A stretch of 64,000 nt of DNA from Escherichia phage Eps7. A program made the position numbers and the translations under genes. Positions 1,519-8,885 of this stretch are shown one piece after another (within the stretch, counting starts at the first letter, position 1; each line of letters begins with the position of its first letter). The notes beneath the pieces are model-generated. The model was given only the letters and a program-made list of their open reading frames with translations, made no database searches and was not told the DNA's origin. The stretch is from sequence record NC_010583.1. One strand, 5' to 3'.

Positions 1519-2007
1519 TTACATCTCAGCAAGTTCTTGCTCAGTAATTACAGTATTGCATAGAGCATCAACTTCTTCATTACCACGAATACCTGAGTGA
1601 CCTTTAACCTTAACAAAGGTTGGATTGGTATCATGGAAGTTAATATACTGTTGAGTTAGTTTAAATGCTTCTTGCCAGAGTTCTAGATTAAGAGGAGTTT
1701 CACCATCTCCCTTCTTCCAGCCTTTCTTCTGCCAAGACCACATCCAGCTTTCCATACCATTTTTGCAGTAAGCAGAATCAGTGTAGATAATTACTGGACG
1801 ATTATCTTTCTTAGTAGACCAACGAAGAACTTCTACAATTGCAGTAAGTTCCATTTCGTTATTAGTAGTTTTAGGGCTGAAGCCAGATTTAGAGCCAATA
1901 CGATCATCATTATCATTATAGACAACGAATCCCCACGCACCTAAACCAGGATTGCCTTTACATGCACCATCTGTATATATGTGGAAAACCGACATTATTT
2001 GCTCCAA
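1519..2007 (-). CDS. rnh: ribonuclease H (RNase HI family)
   Basis: N-terminal YTDGACKGNPG motif, TNNEMEL, and C-terminal KGHSG..GNE..D motif; 162 aa. Confidence 0.9.
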   Translation of the reverse strand: MEQIMSVFHIYTDGACKGNPGLGAWGFVVYNDNDDRIGSKSGFSPKTTNNEMELTAIVEVLRWSTKKDNRPVIIYTDSAYCKNGMESWMWSWQKKGWKKGDGETPLNLELWQEAFKLTQQYINFHDTNPTFVKVKGHSGIRGNEEVDALCNTVITEQELAEM

Positions 2008-2264
2008 TCAATTTCAAGCCAAAAACCTTCACGCTGTTCATACTTAGCTTCTACAACATAACCTAGTTTGCTAAGTTTTTGCATGACGCTATTTCTAGCG
2101 TTTTCTGAGTATTCAGTTAATCCCTGGATGTGACAGTTAAATTCTTTATCTTTAATAGCTTTGTCAATCTCTACGGCAATAAGTGATTCTAGGTCAATTA
2201 CTTCCTTTTTAATGCTAGCAATAGTATTTTGTTTTGCTTCTAAAGCAGATAAAAGAATAGACAT
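1995..2264 (-). CDS. hypothetical protein (89 aa)
   Basis: ORF overlapping the rnh start by 13 nt (translational coupling). Confidence 0.45.
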   Translation of the reverse strand: MSILLSALEAKQNTIASIKKEVIDLESLIAVEIDKAIKDKEFNCHIQGLTEYSENARNSVMQKLSKLGYVVEAKYEQREGFWLEIDWSK

Positions 2265-2266
2265 AT

Positions 2267-2845
2267 TTATTCTCCAATTACTAAAACATCATGTTGGGAA
2301 GATACACCACACATATAATCTGCACAATGCGTAAAAGCCAGATCAATGATTTCAAATATATCATCTACATCTAAATCTGTGGCTCGACAATCCGCAATAG
2401 CTAAACCTGTACGAATACTGGAAAGTACATCTTCTCCTCCACAGCCTACACCGGCATATTCAACTTCTAGAATAGAAGCATTAGATTGGAAAATAAAGAT
2501 TCTTCCTTTGTAGAGCATAATAAATTGTCCCAGATTAGGTTCAGCATATTTTTCATTTTTCTTTTCGCCAAAATCTTTCTGGTTAAACATATCACGTAAT
2601 TTAGGTACTATTTCCGTATATAAATATTTATCATCGGAAATATCTGCTAAACGTGGTGGTACAGTAAAGCTATGCTCTAGTAATTGTCCCATGTAGAAGG
2701 AACTAGTGTATCCGAAGTACAAATCATCAGAGATTTTGAATACTTTCGGATTTTTAACCAGCAGTTTCGTATAGCCATTAGAACCCATACGATCACCAGC
2801 TAAGTATACTTTATCTTTATATTTAAATGCTACTATGGCTGTCAT
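2267..2845 (-). CDS. HslV/proteasome beta-like Ntn-hydrolase peptidase
   Basis: MTAIVAF..VYLAGDRMGS N-terminus (Thr2 nucleophile, AGD) and GVGCGGED matching the HslV GSGG region; 192 aa. Confidence 0.7.
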   Translation of the reverse strand: MTAIVAFKYKDKVYLAGDRMGSNGYTKLLVKNPKVFKISDDLYFGYTSSFYMGQLLEHSFTVPPRLADISDDKYLYTEIVPKLRDMFNQKDFGEKKNEKYAEPNLGQFIMLYKGRIFIFQSNASILEVEYAGVGCGGEDVLSSIRTGLAIADCRATDLDVDDIFEIIDLAFTHCADYMCGVSSQHDVLVIGE

Positions 2846-2875
2846 TATTAAATCCTTCTGTCAAATTAGAAGTAT

Positions 2876-2904
2876 ATTATATTTGAATTTCACTCAGTAA
2901 GCAA
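2876..2904 (-). promoter_or_regulatory. sigma70-type promoter TTGCTT-17-TATAAT
   Basis: minus strand reads CATTTGCTTACTGAGTGAAATTCAAATATAAT, upstream of an AAGGAT RBS. Confidence 0.55.
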
Positions 2905-2920
2905 ATGAAATTTAAATATA

Positions 2921-2938
2921 ATAGCCCCGAAGGGCTAT
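2921..2938 (-). terminator. hairpin with UUCG tetraloop, followed by a T-rich tract
   Basis: ATAGCCCCGAAGGGCTAT; minus-strand RNA forms C(UUCG)G stem-loop then UUAUAUUU. Confidence 0.5.
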
Positions 2939-2943
2939 TTGAA

Positions 2944-3297
2944 TTAGATTATAATCAAGATTATTAGGGCGTATGTCAGATAATGCAGTAACTGATCAAA
3001 TCCTAAAGCTATCCAAAACTTAGCATCGCTTATAGCATATTTACAGCGTTGTGCTTTCCAATAATCTATAATAAAGTGTAGAATTAATTCCATAATAGCT
3101 AAAGCTATAGACATTCCTGGTGATGTGAATAGGATTAGAATTGCAAATGTTAATCCAGCATGTACTAGCGAATGGGTTAATAATGGAAGTTTCCACCCTA
3201 TTTTATGCGTCTTTCTTAGCATATATGGTGTTTGGAGTGGATAATCGGCCATAAAATGTTTTAGAAAGAATATGACAAATAATAGTATAATTAACAT
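2944..3297 (-). CDS. hypothetical multi-pass membrane protein (His-rich)
   Basis: 117-aa ORF with three or four hydrophobic segments. Confidence 0.5.
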   Translation of the reverse strand: MLIILLFVIFFLKHFMADYPLQTPYMLRKTHKIGWKLPLLTHSLVHAGLTFAILILFTSPGMSIALAIMELILHFIIDYWKAQRCKYAISDAKFWIALGFDQLLHYLTYALIILIII

Positions 3298-3300
3298 ATG

Positions 3301-4155
3301 TTACACCGTAAATGGATATGCAATAGCAGGATGGTGTTCATAGCCACGAACAGTAAAATCATCCTTACTTACCCACGTTAATACATCATCCAAAGTTCTA
3401 ATATTTGGATTGATTTCTAAAGTAGGAGGTGCAAAAGGTTCACGATCGAATTGCTTGTGCTCCATCAGAACATTATACTGATCTTCATAGATATGAAGAT
3501 TAATAATCTTTTGACGAGCAATACCTGGCTTAAGACCTGTAATCTGTGCCATAATAGCTAGAAGTGCATAGCATTGCACCATATTAAATACTTGGCCCAG
3601 CAAGAAATCATTAGACCTCTGGAAAGAGTTTAGGTATAGTGTATCACCTAAAATAGAGAATTGATGGGTATGCATACACGGACGTAGGCATCCTTTACGA
3701 AATTCCCCACGGGTTCCAAAAGTTAAAATTTCTCCACGATCGTCAATCCCTCTTTTCAAATTATGATAGACTTTGGCTAACTGATCAAATACCATACCAT
3801 CAGAATTAGTCCAATGACGTCCTTGAACACCATAGACTCGTCCCATATCATCCTCGCCTTTACGGAATGGATTACCTAGCCAGGCAATATTTTCATTTGC
3901 ATTAGCATTCCATGTATTAACACCAATAGCGCGGAATTGTGCTGCTGAGTCGTACCCACGGAGATATCCGATCATTTCCATTATTGCTTGTTTAGCAAAT
4001 GCTTTACGAGTAGTTACTAGCGGCAGTTCTCCTGCTCCTACGTTAAAGGTAAAGTCTGCATCAATAATGGTTAGGCAACGAACCCCTGTTCTAGGATTCG
4101 TTACCCATACACCCTCTTCAAGAATACGTTTTCCAGTTTCAATATATTGCTTCAT
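3301..4155 (-). CDS. thyA: thymidylate synthase
   Basis: active-site region [10 protein letters not shown] (Cys nucleophile) and overall ThyA-like layout; 284 aa. Confidence 0.95.
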
Positions 4156-4680
4156 TTAAATATCACCAATTCTTGTAAGAATGAAAGCGTTTTATCTGCA
4201 TTCTGTCCTGCCACATAGTCCATTCTAGTTGCCATTGAATTATAAGTAATATGATGATGCAGATGTACATCAGCAGATAATGGTGTGGCTGAAGTAATAG
4301 TAGAGATATACGCCATATCTAGATGATTTTTTGACATACATTTCAAGAAGCAGAGTTGCTCCCCCTAATACTACAGTTACCTCTTCCTTGAGAAAATCAG
4401 GCAGACGGTATCCAATGTTGCTTATGCGTGTAGCTGATCTTATAGAGTTCGGTAGTGGTCTATTTGCATAAATAAATAGGTCAGAATCTCCTAGTATTCT
4501 TTTTTGCAGAGTCTCAGGGAATGCTAACCAAGTTCCTGCTCCTACAATAATATTGTCAGGTGCCAGAGAATCCAATGTAGCATAGAAGATATCTAGTTCT
4601 TCTTTGAAAGAACCCCAGGGGAGCTTACCATTGAGGCCGAACTCCCCATTCGGCCCAGTTGCATAGATTGCTGCTATCAT
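4152..4680 (-). CDS. frd: dihydrofolate reductase, interrupted by a frameshift in a homopolymer
   Basis: N-terminal [22 protein letters not shown] and GGATLL motifs; frame is lost at T6 (4327-4332) and a DHFR-like C-terminus resumes in the overlapping 64-aa ORF; total ~166 aa. Confidence 0.8.
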
Positions 4681-5825
4681 TAGAACATATCCTCAAATTC
4701 GTTGCCAAGATCTTTCAGAGTATCAGCAGATGTTTCTGTTACTTGACCTACACGATACGCTGCGCCAATCTGAATCTCTTGCGGAGCAGGTTGTAAAGAT
4801 GTAGTATCCAACCAGTTCATAATCCACGGAATAGGGTTCTTAGTAATTACAGGTAAGTGGCTTGGCCATTCTACACCAATGTGCATAAATGCGTTACGTC
4901 CTACAAAGTAAAGGTATTCTTCAAGCAGTTCTGCGTTCAAACCAATCAGACTGCGGCCTTTAAAGATAAAGTGGCCCCATTCAATCTCAGTTTTCAGAGT
5001 TTTTAGGAGTTGTGTTGGTGCTTTAGCTAATGCTTCATCTACCAGATCTTTATCAAATTGCTGGAACATAATCTGGATGATAGCTTTAGACATTTGAGTA
5101 TGTAGAGCTTCATCTTTAGCGATTAATTGCAGGTTCTTAGCAATACCTTGCAGAATATCGTTCTCTGCTAGAGCAAAGGTACATGCAAAGGATGCGTAGA
5201 ACTGCATTGCTTCCAGACCGTAGATTGCAAAGTAAGCATCTAACAGCTTAGCCTGAGTTTCACGTTTAACTTCAGGGAACTCAGTTTCTGGATAAGTATT
5301 ATCACCACGATGATCACGTACTGCAAGGAAATACTGACCTAACAGATACAATTCATCAAACAGTTCAACAGAATCTGCGATACGTGCAAATGCTTCTTGG
5401 TTTTTAGTTACAGAATCAATAAATTCTGCTGGATCAGTCAGAACGTTACGAATAATATTACTATACGCACGGCTGTGCAGATCTTCGAAGTAGCTCCACT
5501 GCTTGAGCATACCCTCCAATTCAGGACGGCTTACAAGCGGCATAATAGCTGCTTCAGGAGCACGGCTAATGAAAGAATCTGTTTGGGTCTGCCATGCTAA
5601 GTTCAGGAGAGTAATTTCCTGAATATCACGCGGAAGGTTTGGCCATTGTTTCTTATCGGCTTCCAGACTGATTTCAGTTTCAGTCCAAAATTGAGAACGT
5701 TGCAGAAGTGCTAGACGCTCAAGTTCAGGATGTGCTACACGAACGTAATCTGCGATACCAAGAGAATCGCCCAGGAAAAGGTCAGCGTTAGTATGATCCC
5801 AATTCAGGTTTAGTAAAGTAGTCAT
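4680..5825 (-). CDS. nrdB: ribonucleotide reductase class Ia beta subunit
   Basis: collinear with E. coli NrdB (EDLHSRAYS, FYASFA, AKDEALH iron-ligand regions); 381 aa. Confidence 0.95.
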   Translation of the reverse strand: MTTLLNLNWDHTNADLFLGDSLGIADYVRVAHPELERLALLQRSQFWTETEISLEADKKQWPNLPRDIQEITLLNLAWQTQTDSFISRAPEAAIMPLVSRPELEGMLKQWSYFEDLHSRAYSNIIRNVLTDPAEFIDSVTKNQEAFARIADSVELFDELYLLGQYFLAVRDHRGDNTYPETEFPEVKRETQAKLLDAYFAIYGLEAMQFYASFACTFALAENDILQGIAKNLQLIAKDEALHTQMSKAIIQIMFQQFDKDLVDEALAKAPTQLLKTLKTEIEWGHFIFKGRSLIGLNAELLEEYLYFVGRNAFMHIGVEWPSHLPVITKNPIPWIMNWLDTTSLQPAPQEIQIGAAYRVGQVTETSADTLKDLGNEFEDMF

Positions 5826-5891: not shown

Positions 5892-6374
5892 TTATAAACT
5901 ATCAAGCTCCAATAGTTTAGCATCGCGCCATTCTATAGCATCCTCTAATTCTTTAAATGTTTTAGTATGTTTTACACCTTTCCTAGCTATTTGGACTTGA
6001 TAAGATCCACTTGCTTTTTGGTGTATATTTTTAATACCTAACTTATTGTCCTTATGTGCTCCAACGTTCTTTCCATTACTAAATCTGTTAGAGGCTAGTA
6101 AATTAATTGCTCTATTATCATGACGTATTCTATTATCATGATCTACTTCTTTTGGGATGTACCCATGCGTAATATAGAATGCTAGGATATGTGCGTAGTA
6201 TTTTGTACCTCTTACCTGCATTACTATGTATCCTGAGCATTTTTCCAAAGAGCCTGCCTCTTTGCCTGCAAACTTAGTATTAAATGATTTATCTTCTCTA
6301 GGTTTGTGGGTAAAGATTCCGGTTTCTGGATTATAGTCAAATAACTCAGCTATTTCTTTGTATTTTTCTTCCAT
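5892..6374 (-). CDS. HNH homing endonuclease with AP2-type DNA-binding domain
   Basis: HILAFYITHGYIP..VDHDNRIRHDNRAINL (HNH) plus GVKHTKTFKELEDAIEWRD (AP2-like); sits between nrdA and nrdB. Confidence 0.8.
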   Translation of the reverse strand: MEEKYKEIAELFDYNPETGIFTHKPREDKSFNTKFAGKEAGSLEKCSGYIVMQVRGTKYYAHILAFYITHGYIPKEVDHDNRIRHDNRAINLLASNRFSNGKNVGAHKDNKLGIKNIHQKASGSYQVQIARKGVKHTKTFKELEDAIEWRDAKLLELDSL

Positions 6375-6429: not shown

Positions 6430-8822
6430 TTATAATTGACAACCACCAGATGCGCATCCAGCAGCAGCTTCCTCTCCTGCACCTCCACCATTTTCAGTGT
6501 TGAAGTTTGCATAATAAAAGGTTTTCCAACCGTACTTAACAGCAGTCATAAAGTCACGAACTACTACTGGGCCGGGAATGATTTCATTCTCGAACTTGGT
6601 GTAGTCATAGTACATATTCGTACTGATAGACTGGCTGAAGAATTTCTGCATGGTTGCTACCCATTTGATCCACTCGATACGATCTACATCATAAGCCAGT
6701 TTATAGCTCATTAATGTATCCCAATCAGTTGCACCTGGAGCAATTGCAATTACTTTATTAACTGCACTACCCTTGATAGATACGATCTTACGGGGCGGTT
6801 CGATAGAGTTAGTAACACCTAGCAGTACAGAGGAACTTTCACCTGGCATCTGAGCAGTCAGAACAGAGTTGCGCATACCATATTTCAGAATATCTGCACG
6901 CAGAGATTCCCAATCCATTTCTAGACCTACAGTTACCAGTTCATCAACAGTTTTCTTGTACGTGTCGATTACCAGAGTTCCTTGCGAAGGCTTAGTACGA
7001 TTAAACCAGTCACATGCACCTTGTTCTTTAGCCAGACGTACAGAGGCTTTATGTAGGAAGTAGGACAGCTTTTCAGCTTCACGGTGAATCCAGTTACGTG
7101 CTTCAACACCTTCGTAAGCCAAACCTTCTGCTGCCATTGCACCTGCTGCGTTCATCAGACCAATACCAACGTTACGACGTTTCTTAGCCGTGTACTTCCA
7201 TAGTTGGGAATGGGTAATCCTGAATCTCGATGATTGTATCAACGAATTTCAGAAGGATGTAGCAAGTTTTCTCCCATTCAGCCAGAGATTCCATGCGGCC
7301 TAGTACAACACCACCTAAGTTACACAGAGATACTTCACCAATATCTTCTGGACGCATATCGTCTAACTGATCTTGGGTTTTATACAGTTCCGTAACGTGA
7401 TGGAATGGACGGGTGGCTGAGTAATTCAACACAAAAGGGTTGGTCATACGAATCGGGTCAAGGAAGTTACCATGACGGTTAGATTCACCAATGTGATGAG
7501 CATACATACGCCCTGTTTCCATACGGATACGTAACCAAGTATCTAGGATTTCTTTTGCAGAGATTCTAGGAGCTGCTGGAATTGTTTTTCCTTCGTGGTC
7601 GATCTTTGTAAGAGAAGCCACACGTTTCTCCGCTGCCACGTAGATTTCTTCAAACTTAGCCTCATCTTCACCATAAAACGCTTCATGAACTTCTGGTGCG
7701 TAGAAGTAGGACATTAGCGTAATATCTTCGTTTTTCAGGTAACGTTTTAACAGAAGGTTGTTAAAGCTCAGAGAATAATCCATCTTATCGATTTTATTCT
7801 CGTCTGTAGCACGTTGCTGCTTAACCTGCATCAACTGAATGATTTCAGGATCGAAGTATGGATAAGACACAGTAGCAGAACCGCCACGGGTTTGCTGAGT
7901 GTTAGCTTTTACTGATCGGTCAATGTGTCGATAATATGGCAGTTTTCCGGAATGCGGGAATGCCCCATTTCGCACCGGATCAGCAATTGATCGGCTTTCA
8001 AGATGATACCCGATTCCCGCTCTGGCTGCGACCATTTTGAAGACGATGTGCTCGGCTGTGTCGATTGAATCCAGCGTGTCAGTGGAATCCACGAGACAGC
8101 AACTAGCAAATCCACGGTCACTAGAGCGCAGGCCAACCAGTGGCGGCGTAGGAACGTTGATTTTGTGGAGCGACATTGCATTGTAGAGGTCGATTGCATC
8201 TAGGATTGTCCAGTTAGGTTGAGATAACATCGCCATTGCCATACCCATGTAGGCAAACTGCGGGGTTTCATAAATTTCACCAGTTGCAATATTACGACGA
8301 GAATACTTGTCGAAGAACTGTTTCAGTCCACCACTGGTGAATAAACGATCGCGATCATGATCAATAACTTGGTTCAGAGCGTCAAACTGATCATCGCTAA
8401 TCCATGCACTCATGTCTTCCCAGCGCCAACACGAACCATATGATCGTGGAAGAAACGCAGAGAAGGGGTTCAAAGGAATCATATAGGCGTTTACGCATCT
8501 GCGCAAGACGTAATTCCTTTGCTACAGTATCATATGCTGGGTTGTCTTTGATAAGACCTTCAGCGGCTTTAATTAACACATCTTGGAGGGTATCGGAATC
8601 TACAACACCTTTTGGTAGATTTTTCTGGGCAGACATAACGACGGCAGACCAACTTACGTCAGTTGCTTTACATGCCCATGCAGCCCAATCATTGAGTTTT
8701 TCAGGAGCAAAGTCCTGAACAGTACCGTCACGTTTAATTACTTTTTCAATACTATGGCTCATTGGGGTTTCCTTTTTGTAGTTATCAGGATTTAGGAAAT
8801 ATTCTACTTTGTTTTGGGTCAT
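6430..8822 (-). CDS. nrdA: ribonucleotide reductase class Ia alpha subunit, split over three frames by single-base indels
   Basis: ATP-cone N-terminus (8397..8822), catalytic core (7184..8506) and C-terminus GIGLMN..CASGGCQL (6430..7242) are collinear with E. coli NrdA; frame breaks at G4 (8465-8468), CCC (8419-8421) and about 7181-7190. Confidence 0.9.
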
Positions 8823-8885
8823 TATGCAAGTACAATTTTACAGATAAAAAGAGCCCGGATATTTTCATACCCAGGCTCGTCTGTC

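What the first reader, a model, noticed from the sequence alone, without database searches (positions are those of the whole stretch)
2267..2845. Orphan HslV/proteasome-like Ntn-hydrolase without an HslU partner
The protein has Thr at position 2 after Met, an AGD motif and a GxGG loop, as in HslV threonine peptidases. No AAA+ HslU-like ATPase is encoded nearby. It may dock onto a host unfoldase or act alone to degrade host factors.
Basis: partly seen in the sequence, partly recalled or inferred. Interest (0 to 1): 0.65.

Follow-up and report, generated by a model that had tools for sequence, protein, structure and literature searches.

The report
Phage proteasome-like peptidase, already annotated
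This T5-like phage gene does encode a small proteasome/HslV-type threonine peptidase with no partner ATPase, but the identical protein has been in public phage records since 2008 and its family was described in 2021, so it is real but not new, and its role in infection is still untested.

Summary

The window is an Epseptimavirus (T5-like phage). No AAA+ unfoldase is annotated anywhere in a 98 to 99% identical genome.

It is not HslV proper. No HslV model in NCBIfam matches, and the H2-S7 pore loop is long, as in BPH. Relatives are common in Streptomyces, a phylum that lacks HslV, so docking on host HslU is disfavoured.

The family is large: 969 clusters at E<1e-30. Its spread across alphaproteobacteria, actinobacteria and many phages fits the 'AAH' proteasome homologue of Fuchs, Alva and Lupas (2021), who had already noted phage copies without AAA+ partners.

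The gene is an accessory early gene with its own promoter. It is absent from T5-type Tequintavirus and under strong purifying selection (dN/dS 0.03). The exact protein is EPS7 ACB97546.1. Verdict: already known, function untested, modest interest.

The parts
2267..2845 (-). CDS, 192 aa: propeptide-less proteasome-family (T1) Ntn peptidase. Thr1 codon 2842..2840, Asp17 codon 2794..2792, Lys33 codon 2746..2744, oxyanion Gly codon 2713..2711, Cys at the Ser129-equivalent position, codon 2443..2441.
2853..2859 (-). Shine-Dalgarno-like AGAAGGA, 7 nt upstream of the ATG
   Evidence: read directly from the sequence
2876..2904 (-). Sigma-70-type promoter-like site: -35 TTGCTT (2904..2899), 17-nt spacer, consensus -10 TATAAT (2881..2876), A/T-rich upstream. 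It resembles T5 early promoters such as PN25 (from my own knowledge, not tested here).
   Evidence: sequence. The automatic scan did not list it because its -35 hexamer matches only 3 of 6, so this is a by-eye call.
2920..2939 (-). GC-rich hairpin (8-bp stem, UUCG loop) followed by an interrupted U-rich tract. It is a terminator-like element separating the upstream DUF3307 gene from this gene.
   Evidence: RNA fold -12.2 kcal/mol, z -3.6 against shuffles. The terminator scan did not call it.
2944..3297 (-). Upstream neighbour: 117-aa DUF3307 membrane protein (phrog_2470). It is a separately variable accessory gene in the same td-rnh slot, and no functional link is shown.
   Evidence: PF11750 46.4 bits; phrog_2470; absent from phage S124, which keeps the peptidase gene
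1995..2264 (-). Downstream neighbour: 89-aa protein of unknown function (phrog_13270). Its ATG lies 3 nt after the peptidase stop, so it is probably co-transcribed.
   Evidence: Present without the peptidase in phage Seabear; Tequintavirus has a small hypothetical gene at the same position, also without the peptidase. Absent from S124.
1519..1995 (-). RNase H gene, the conserved right-hand boundary of the variable slot
   Evidence: annotation of phage oselot mapped onto the window; ORF
3301..4155 (-). Thymidylate synthase gene, the conserved left-hand boundary of the variable slot

Best explanation
The gene encodes a catalytically competent threonine N-terminal-nucleophile peptidase of the proteasome-beta/HslV/BPH superfamily. 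It has no propeptide and belongs to a large phage-associated family: phrog_1040, most probably the 'AAH' group of Fuchs et al. 2021.

Shown here: the fold; the intact Thr1/Asp17/Lys33 triad and oxyanion Gly; strong purifying selection; the absence of any phage-encoded unfoldase; and accessory status within T5-like phages.

Inferred: host methionine aminopeptidase removes Met1 and exposes Thr1, as it does for E. coli HslV, which also starts MTT. The subunits assemble into a homo-oligomeric ring or double ring, like HslV and BPH. The particle works without a dedicated AAA+ partner, with access controlled by its long H2-S7 pore loop. It cleaves peptides and unfolded or loosely folded proteins in the infected cell. 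The gene is transcribed early from its own sigma-70-type promoter, alongside the nucleotide-metabolism genes.

The physiological target is unknown. It could be bulk turnover of host protein, or removal of particular host factors.
For: Family membership:
- PF00227 scores above its cut-off, and phrog_1040 matches.
- A profile search against PDB sequences gives HslV 3.8e-11 and BPH 2.6e-7.

Structure:
- The AF2 model has pLDDT 96.6, a beta-sandwich core and four helices.
- Foldseek top hits are HslV and BPH, TM 0.64-0.71.

Catalytic residues:
- T2, D18, K34, G45, G134 and G136 are 100% conserved in 168 homologues that share only 25-40% identity.
- 160 of 167 homologues start MT, so there is no propeptide.

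Selection and persistence:
- dN/dS is 0.03 against phage S124.
- A 56%-identical orthologue sits in the same td-rnh slot in Enterobacter phage KKP_3711.

No unfoldase partner:
- None in the window.
- None in the whole near-identical phage oselot genome.
- None among the recurrent neighbours at 80 viral loci.
- Fuchs et al. also found no co-occurring AAA+ for these homologues.

Independence from HslU:
- Relatives are abundant in Streptomyces and Actinoplanes, a phylum with no HslV in Table 1 of PMC8665760.
- The H2-S7 loop is about 18 residues, like BPH and unlike the short HslV linker.

Expression: own promoter-like site, SD and upstream hairpin.
Against: - No biochemical or genetic data exist for any member of this family.
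- The oligomeric state was not predicted or measured here.
- The Ser129-equivalent residue is Cys in this protein (64% of sampled homologues; 30% have Ser), and the effect on catalysis is unknown.
- The Asp166/Ser169 equivalents could not be aligned with confidence.
- Gene neighbourhoods vary: early/auxiliary regions in large lytic phages, and next to portal and terminase genes in others. A single conserved role is therefore not assured.
- T5-type Tequintavirus phages do without the gene, so any role is dispensable or conditional.
Confidence: 0.6

Rival explanations
1. Host-unfoldase hijack. The phage subunit forms HslV-like hexameric rings that dock onto host HslU (ClpY) or another host AAA+ such as ClpX or ClpA. 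This redirects ATP-dependent proteolysis to phage-chosen substrates.
For: - HslV is the best sequence-profile match among solved structures and among the top structural matches.
- The hosts, E. coli and Salmonella, encode HslU (established knowledge).
- The N-terminus MTAIV resembles E. coli HslV MTTIV.
Against: - No NCBIfam HslV model matches at all.
- The family is abundant in actinobacteria, which lack HslV, and in phages whose GC content spans 29-72%.
- The pore loop is long and of mixed charge, not the short HslV loop carrying the Arg86/Arg89/Lys90 cluster.
- Under the HMMER alignment that equates the family's invariant Gly with HslV Gly45, the HslU-tail pocket residues Phe54 and Phe57 (PMC6429459) fall on Gln and Glu/Gln. 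Lys28, which I recall as a tail contact, falls on Leu. This mapping depends on the alignment and is only indicative.
- In BPH, a related HslV-like family, pull-downs found no HslU.
Confidence: 0.12
2. Not a bulk protease. It is a specific Ntn enzyme that carries out a single processing, transpeptidation/ligation or amide-hydrolysis reaction on one phage or host substrate, as connectase does within the same superfamily. It may act as a monomer or small oligomer.
For: - The family has its own invariant motif around helix H1, G-Y/F-T-S/T-S-F-R/Y-M-G-Q-L-L, where proteasomes shape the substrate pockets.
- Some homologues sit next to portal, prohead-protease and terminase genes, which would suit a morphogenetic processing role.
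Against: - It retains helices H1 and H2, which connectase lacks.
- It has no insertion covering the active site.
- In T5-like phages it lies among early nucleotide-metabolism genes, far from the head genes, and T5 itself assembles without it.
Confidence: 0.15
3. Decoy or poison subunit. The protein co-assembles with or mimics host HslV and so inhibits host HslUV, without needing its own catalysis.
For: Only the general resemblance to HslV and the precedent that phages inhibit host proteases (own knowledge, for example T4 PinA against Lon).
Against: - Every catalytic residue is invariant across a very divergent family, which would not be expected of a non-catalytic decoy.
- Identity to HslV is only about 18-20%.
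- The family occurs in hosts without HslV.
Confidence: 0.03

Closest known systems
[quoted passage not shown]
   Same: - Compact subunit of about 180-190 aa with no propeptide, four helices, and no S12/H5 or other extension.
- Catalytic Thr1/Asp17/Lys33/Gly47 retained.
- No AAA+ partner.
- Bacterial relatives are concentrated in alphaproteobacteria (Azospirillum, Rhizobiales, Devosia) and actinobacteria (Streptomyces, Actinoplanes), with scattered Firmicutes and Bacteroidales, and many phages. This is the distribution the paper gives for AAH.
   Different: - Assignment rests on architecture and distribution only. The AAH reference WP_035979212 was not available for direct comparison.
- The paper reported 240 sequences at 90% identity. 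The family detected here is far larger: 969 50%-identity clusters at E<1e-30.
BPH (Betaproteobacteria proteasome homologue; PDB 5OVS, 5OVU)
   Same: - No propeptide and no partner unfoldase.
- Long loop between H2 and S7.
   Different: - Only 13-19% identity.
- The BPH loop is strongly acidic. Here it is mixed (4 Lys, 3 Glu, 1 Asp in QKDFGEKKNEKYAEPNLG).
- BPH is a chromosomal bacterial gene linked to stress operons, not a phage gene.
- The heptameric double ring of BPH is not tested here.
HslV (ClpQ), the peptidase of the HslUV ATP-dependent protease
   Same: - Ntn fold, with the Met-Thr N-terminus matured by Met removal.
- G-D at positions 16-17 and Lys33.
- The G-x-G-G loop aligns with HslV G-S-G-G.
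   Different: - No hslU gene.
- No NCBIfam HslV model hit.
- Cys instead of Ser124 (the Ser129 equivalent).
- Long pore loop without the Arg86/Arg89/Lys90 cluster.
- The family is present in phyla that lack HslUV.
- Database names such as 'peptidase HslV family' or 'ATP-dependent protease' describe similarity, not orthology.
[quoted passage not shown] 2021
   Same: Phage-borne group I proteasome homologue without an AAA+ partner.
   Different: PPH is about 140 aa and lacks helix H2. This protein is 192 aa with a confident H2 at residues 71-89.

Membership tests
Proteasome-like T1 Ntn hydrolases (Pfam PF00227) | Profile match above the curated threshold | tested here: met
   38.5 bits against cut-off 22.4, residues 2-189 on profile positions 5-188 of 189
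Proteasome-like T1 Ntn hydrolases (Pfam PF00227) | Alpha-beta-beta-alpha Ntn fold with flanking helix pairs H1/H2 and H3/H4 | tested here: met
   [not shown]
Proteasome-like T1 Ntn hydrolases (Pfam PF00227) | N-terminal nucleophile Thr1 with Asp17 and Lys33, and oxyanion Gly (Gly47 in 20S, Gly45 in HslV) | tested here: met
   T2, D18, K34 and G45 (Met-numbered) are invariant in 168 sequences. The HMMER alignment equates the family Gly with HslV Gly45.
Proteasome-like T1 Ntn hydrolases (Pfam PF00227) | Ser129/Asp166/Ser169 network that positions Thr1 | tested here: inconclusive
   The Ser129-equivalent is Cys135: 64% Cys, 30% Ser across the family.
Proteasome-like T1 Ntn hydrolases (Pfam PF00227) | Threonine peptidase activity sensitive to proteasome inhibitors | not testable with these tools
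   Needs enzyme assays.
HslV (ClpQ) proper | Match to the curated HslV family model | tested here: not met
   NCBIfam returned only sub-threshold hits to 20S_bact_beta (14.7 bits against 191.9) and arc_protsome_B. No HslV model appeared at E up to 10.
HslV (ClpQ) proper | Partner AAA+ HslU encoded with it | tested here: not met
   None in the window, none in the whole near-identical genome, and none among the recurrent neighbours at 80 viral loci.
HslV (ClpQ) proper | Short H2-S7 pore linker with the basic cluster Arg86/Arg89/Lys90 (PMC5777263) | tested here: not met
   The loop is about 18 residues (89-106, QKDFGEKKNEKYAEPNLG) between H2 and the next strand. The feature is as described.
HslV (ClpQ) proper | HslU C-tail pocket residues (Phe54, Phe57, Gln114, Lys80; PMC6429459) | tested here: inconclusive
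   Under an ungapped extension of the HMMER alignment, Phe54 and Phe57 fall on the family's invariant Gln and on Glu/Gln. hhalign places this helix differently, so the mapping is not secure.
AAH (Fuchs et al. 2021) | Compact group I subunit: no propeptide, no insertions, H1-H4 present, no S12/H5 | tested here: met
   160 of 167 homologues start MT
AAH (Fuchs et al. 2021) | Distribution centred on alphaproteobacteria and actinobacteria, plus phages | tested here: met
   The best 80 of 198 bacterial loci are mostly Azospirillum, Rhizobiales and Streptomyces, with Myxococcales and Paraburkholderia. 367 viral contigs also carry a relative.
AAH (Fuchs et al. 2021) | Clusters by sequence with the AAH reference (WP_035979212) | not testable with these tools
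   The accession is given in the paper, but the sequence is not held. It was not among the cluster members read, and the supplement has no sequences.
PPH (Fuchs et al. 2021) | About 140 residues, lacking helix H2 | tested here: not met
   192 aa; H2 at residues 71-89 with pLDDT above 95
Known anti-phage defence proteins (PADLOC-DB) | Match to any defence-system protein model | tested here: not met
   No family at E up to 1

The most novel reading that the evidence does not exclude
This family could be a true viral 'mini-proteasome'. It would be a ring-shaped particle, independent of any unfoldase, that phages switch on early to destroy specific host proteins such as defence or stress-response factors. 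It would be a portable counter-defence or host-takeover module, which would explain its patchy, cassette-like distribution in a variable slot of T5-like genomes.
Probability: 0.15. Interest if true: 0.65.

Novelty: already known. Interest (0 to 1): 0.27.

Why it matters
Proteasome-type peptidases are normally tied to an ATP-driven unfoldase. A large family that phages carry without one raises two questions: how are substrates selected and admitted, and what does a virus gain from it? No member of this family has been tested, so the first biochemical and genetic work would be informative. An Epseptimavirus/E. coli or Salmonella system would be convenient for that. The existence, annotation and 'orphan' nature of the gene are already on record, so this window adds an example, not a discovery.

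Tried and rejected
1. Conserved partners near 80 bacterial homologues. Naive ORF calling plus all-against-all BLAST was swamped by spurious antisense and alternate-frame ORFs in high-GC genomes and by Azospirillum synteny. I abandoned it.

2. The same analysis on 80 viral loci with greedy non-overlapping ORFs. It worked but found no neighbour in more than 11 of 80 loci. By my reading of the representative sequences, the neighbours were prohead protease, portal, PhoH, terminase, methylase and DnaB-type proteins. None was an AAA+ unfoldase.

3. A second proteasome-like paralogue in the window, as seen in tandem in Aeromonas phage 4L372D. None was found. The apparent pair in Vibrio phage R16F is one long-form gene split in two.

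4. Direct assignment to AAH, PPH or CPH. The paper's supplement holds no sequences, and the reference accessions did not appear among the cluster members read.

5. An explicit list of HslV residues that contact HslU. Only part of the list was recovered, so that test is inconclusive.

6. Literature on function in phages or T5-like genomes. Nothing was found.

7. PADLOC defence models: no hit for the peptidase.

8. A functional link to the DUF3307 gene or the 89-aa gene. I rejected this because each occurs without the peptidase, or the peptidase without it, in related phages.

9. A linked-multimer AlphaFold run. I considered it but did not run it, because coordinates are not returned and ring geometry could not have been read out.

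Full report
**Where the window comes from.** The first 6 kb of the window is 98-99% identical to many T5-like phages of Salmonella and E. coli. Matches include Salmonella phage oselot and the EPS7-like group, genus Epseptimavirus, family Demerecviridae. Mapped onto the oselot annotation, the finding lies in the early region, all on the minus strand of the window. The gene order is nrdA, an HNH endonuclease, nrdB, dihydrofolate reductase, thymidylate synthase (td), a DUF3307 membrane protein, the finding, an 89-aa protein, then RNase H.

**The observation.**
- ORF 2267..2845 (minus strand) encodes 192 aa beginning MTAIVAFKYKDKVYLAGDR and containing GVGCGGEDV. The Met-Thr start, the AGD motif and the GxGG loop are all there.
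- Pfam Proteasome (PF00227) scores 38.5 bits against a cut-off of 22.4, over almost the whole protein.
- PHROGs places it in phrog_1040, 'peptidase HslV family', E 1.9e-21.
- tblastn finds a 100% identical product in more than 100 phage records. These are annotated variously as hypothetical protein, 'peptidase HslV family', 'proteasome subunit-like protein' or 'protease'.
- The exact sequence is ACB97546.1 of phage EPS7 and was seen on 55 contigs.
- Against the orthologue of phage S124 (88.8% DNA identity), dN is 0.021 and dS is 0.71, a ratio of 0.03. This is a real, constrained gene.

**Fold and active site.**
- A 143-sequence alignment gave an AlphaFold model with mean pLDDT 96.6 and pTM 0.91. 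It has a beta-sandwich core and four helices at 50-59, 71-89, 137-153 and 160-177.
- Foldseek against the PDB puts HslV and BPH first, with TM 0.64-0.71.
- A profile of the family against PDB sequences gives HslV 3.8e-11 and BPH 2.6e-7.
- In 168 aligned homologues sharing only 25-40% identity with the query, T2, D18, K34, G45, G134 and G136 are invariant. 160 of 167 begin MT.
- In mature-protein numbering these are Thr1, Asp17 and Lys33, exactly the proteasome triad, plus the oxyanion Gly. The HMMER alignment equates the invariant Gly with HslV Gly45.
- The residue that aligns with HslV Ser124 / proteasome Ser129 is Cys here. Across the family it is Cys in 64% and Ser in 30%.
- Because Thr follows Met directly, host methionine aminopeptidase should expose the nucleophile, as it does for E. 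coli HslV. This is established knowledge and was not tested here.

**It is not HslV proper, and it is orphan.**
- NCBIfam returns no HslV model at all. It gives only far-sub-threshold hits to bacterial and archaeal 20S beta models.
- The window holds no second proteasome-like ORF. Its Walker-A ORFs lie at positions that correspond, by my coordinate mapping, to the helicase, exonuclease and terminase genes annotated in oselot.
- The 207 annotated features of oselot include no AAA+ unfoldase.
- The loop between H2 and the next strand is about 18 residues, QKDFGEKKNEKYAEPNLG. In HslV this is 'merely a short linker' carrying Arg86/Arg89/Lys90. The partnerless BPH has a long loop.

**The family.**
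- An exhaustive profile search of 1.84 billion representatives found 6955 clusters at E<=1e-3, 4592 at <=1e-10 and 969 at <=1e-30. Nearly all begin at residue 1 of the profile, and some carry acidic C-terminal extensions.
- A scan of one genome per prokaryotic species found 198 loci. The best 80 are dominated by Azospirillum, Rhizobiales and Devosia (alphaproteobacteria) and by Streptomyces and Actinoplanes (actinobacteria). Myxococcales, Paraburkholderia and a few Firmicutes, Bacteroidales and Chloroflexi also appear.
- IMG/VR holds at least 367 viral contigs with a relative, with GC content from 29 to 72% among the 80 loci fetched.
- This matches the 'AAH' family of Fuchs, Alva and Lupas (2021). 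[quoted passage not shown]
- Their PPH family is excluded: it is about 140 aa and lacks H2.
- I could not compare directly with the AAH reference sequence, so this assignment is probable rather than proven.
- Their Table 1 shows no HslV in actinobacteria. The family therefore works in cells that have no HslUV. Together with the pore loop and the weak conservation of the HslU-tail pocket, this argues against docking on host HslU.

**Genomic behaviour.** The td-rnh interval is a variable slot.

| Phage | Gene order in the slot |
|---|---|
| This window, oselot | td, DUF3307, peptidase, orf89, rnh |
| S124 | td, peptidase, rnh |
| Seabear | td, an 84-aa gene, orf89, rnh |
| HildyBeyeler, PNJ1902 (T5-type Tequintavirus) | td, a 93-aa gene, rnh |
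| Enterobacter phage KKP_3711 (distant relative; peptidase 56% identical) | td, a 63-aa gene, peptidase, then a 160-aa gene |

- About 124 phage records carry a copy with at least 90% identity, whereas 446 records match the flanking DNA. The gene is therefore accessory, but old and retained.
- Upstream of the gene lie a GC-rich hairpin (2939..2920; -12.2 kcal/mol, z -3.6), a promoter-like TTGCTT-17-TATAAT (2904..2876) and a Shine-Dalgarno sequence. This looks like an early transcription unit of its own.
- Elsewhere the gene keeps varied company. In Aeromonas, Vibrio and 121Q-like phages it sits near PhoH, Sir2, Nudix and endolysin genes. In some other contigs it abuts ORFs that I read, from their sequences, as portal, terminase and prohead-protease genes.
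- No neighbour recurs in more than 11 of 80 loci.

**Mechanism.**
- Shown: the fold, an intact catalytic apparatus, constraint on the sequence, and the absence of a phage unfoldase.
- Inferred: Met removal; assembly into rings as in HslV (two hexamers) or BPH (two heptamers); access gated by the long pore loop; and ATP-independent cleavage of peptides and unfolded proteins early in infection.
- The physiological substrate is unknown.
- Rivals, scored in the report sections, are hijack of a host AAA+, a single-substrate processing or ligase-type enzyme, and an HslV decoy.

**Novelty.** The identical protein has been public since phage EPS7 and is labelled 'peptidase HslV family' in RefSeq. The class, and its lack of AAA+ partners, was described in 2021. 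I found no functional study. The finding is correct but already known. The remaining interest lies in the untested biology.

Noticed in passing
window ~6430..8825 (-): The class Ia ribonucleotide reductase large subunit gene (nrdA) is broken relative to phage oselot. DNA identity is 96.8% with 9 gap positions, and the protein aligns only in four pieces in different frames, with breaks near aa 119/120, 134/135 and 543. In the window it appears as separate ORFs 6430..7242 and 7184..8506. It is either a pseudogene or, more likely, a set of indel errors in the source assembly.
   Followed up: partly
outside the window: NC_048871.1 98685-99284 (L171:18686-19285): The same phage genome type also encodes a 199-aa ClpP-like serine protease subunit (PF00574, 31.1 bits against cut-off 20.2), with no Clp ATPase. 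It is a second orphan chambered-protease-type subunit. In the 121Q-like jumbo phage vB_EcoM_E9.1, a ClpP-like 'protease' lies two genes upstream of the proteasome-like gene (L005:3065-3673 and 4001-4594).
   Followed up: partly
L004:4001-4552 and 4570-5454 (Aeromonas phage 4L372D): Two phrog_1040 paralogues sit in tandem: a short 183-aa form like the one here, and a 294-aa form with an acidic C-terminal extension. Long forms of 300-390 aa in the metagenomic family mostly end in a similar C-terminal segment (for example ...KYPHNIGIEKLREKI...). This hints at a docking or regulatory tail that the T5-like protein lacks.
   Followed up: no
window 2944..3297 (-): A DUF3307 membrane protein (phrog_2470, category 'moron, auxiliary metabolic gene and host takeover') is a separate accessory gene in the same td-rnh slot. 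It is present in oselot and this window, and absent from S124, Seabear and Tequintavirus.
   Followed up: partly
window 5892..6374 (-): An HNH-type homing endonuclease ORF (160 aa) is inserted between nrdA and nrdB. Further HNH endonucleases are scattered through the related genome.
   Followed up: no
L109, L127, L155, L156 (IMG/VR contigs): In several other viral contigs the proteasome-like gene starts within 0-16 nt of the end of an ORF that I read as a portal gene (unannotated; judged from its sequence). That would place it in the late head module rather than among early genes. The context differs from the T5-like one and is unexplained.
   Followed up: no
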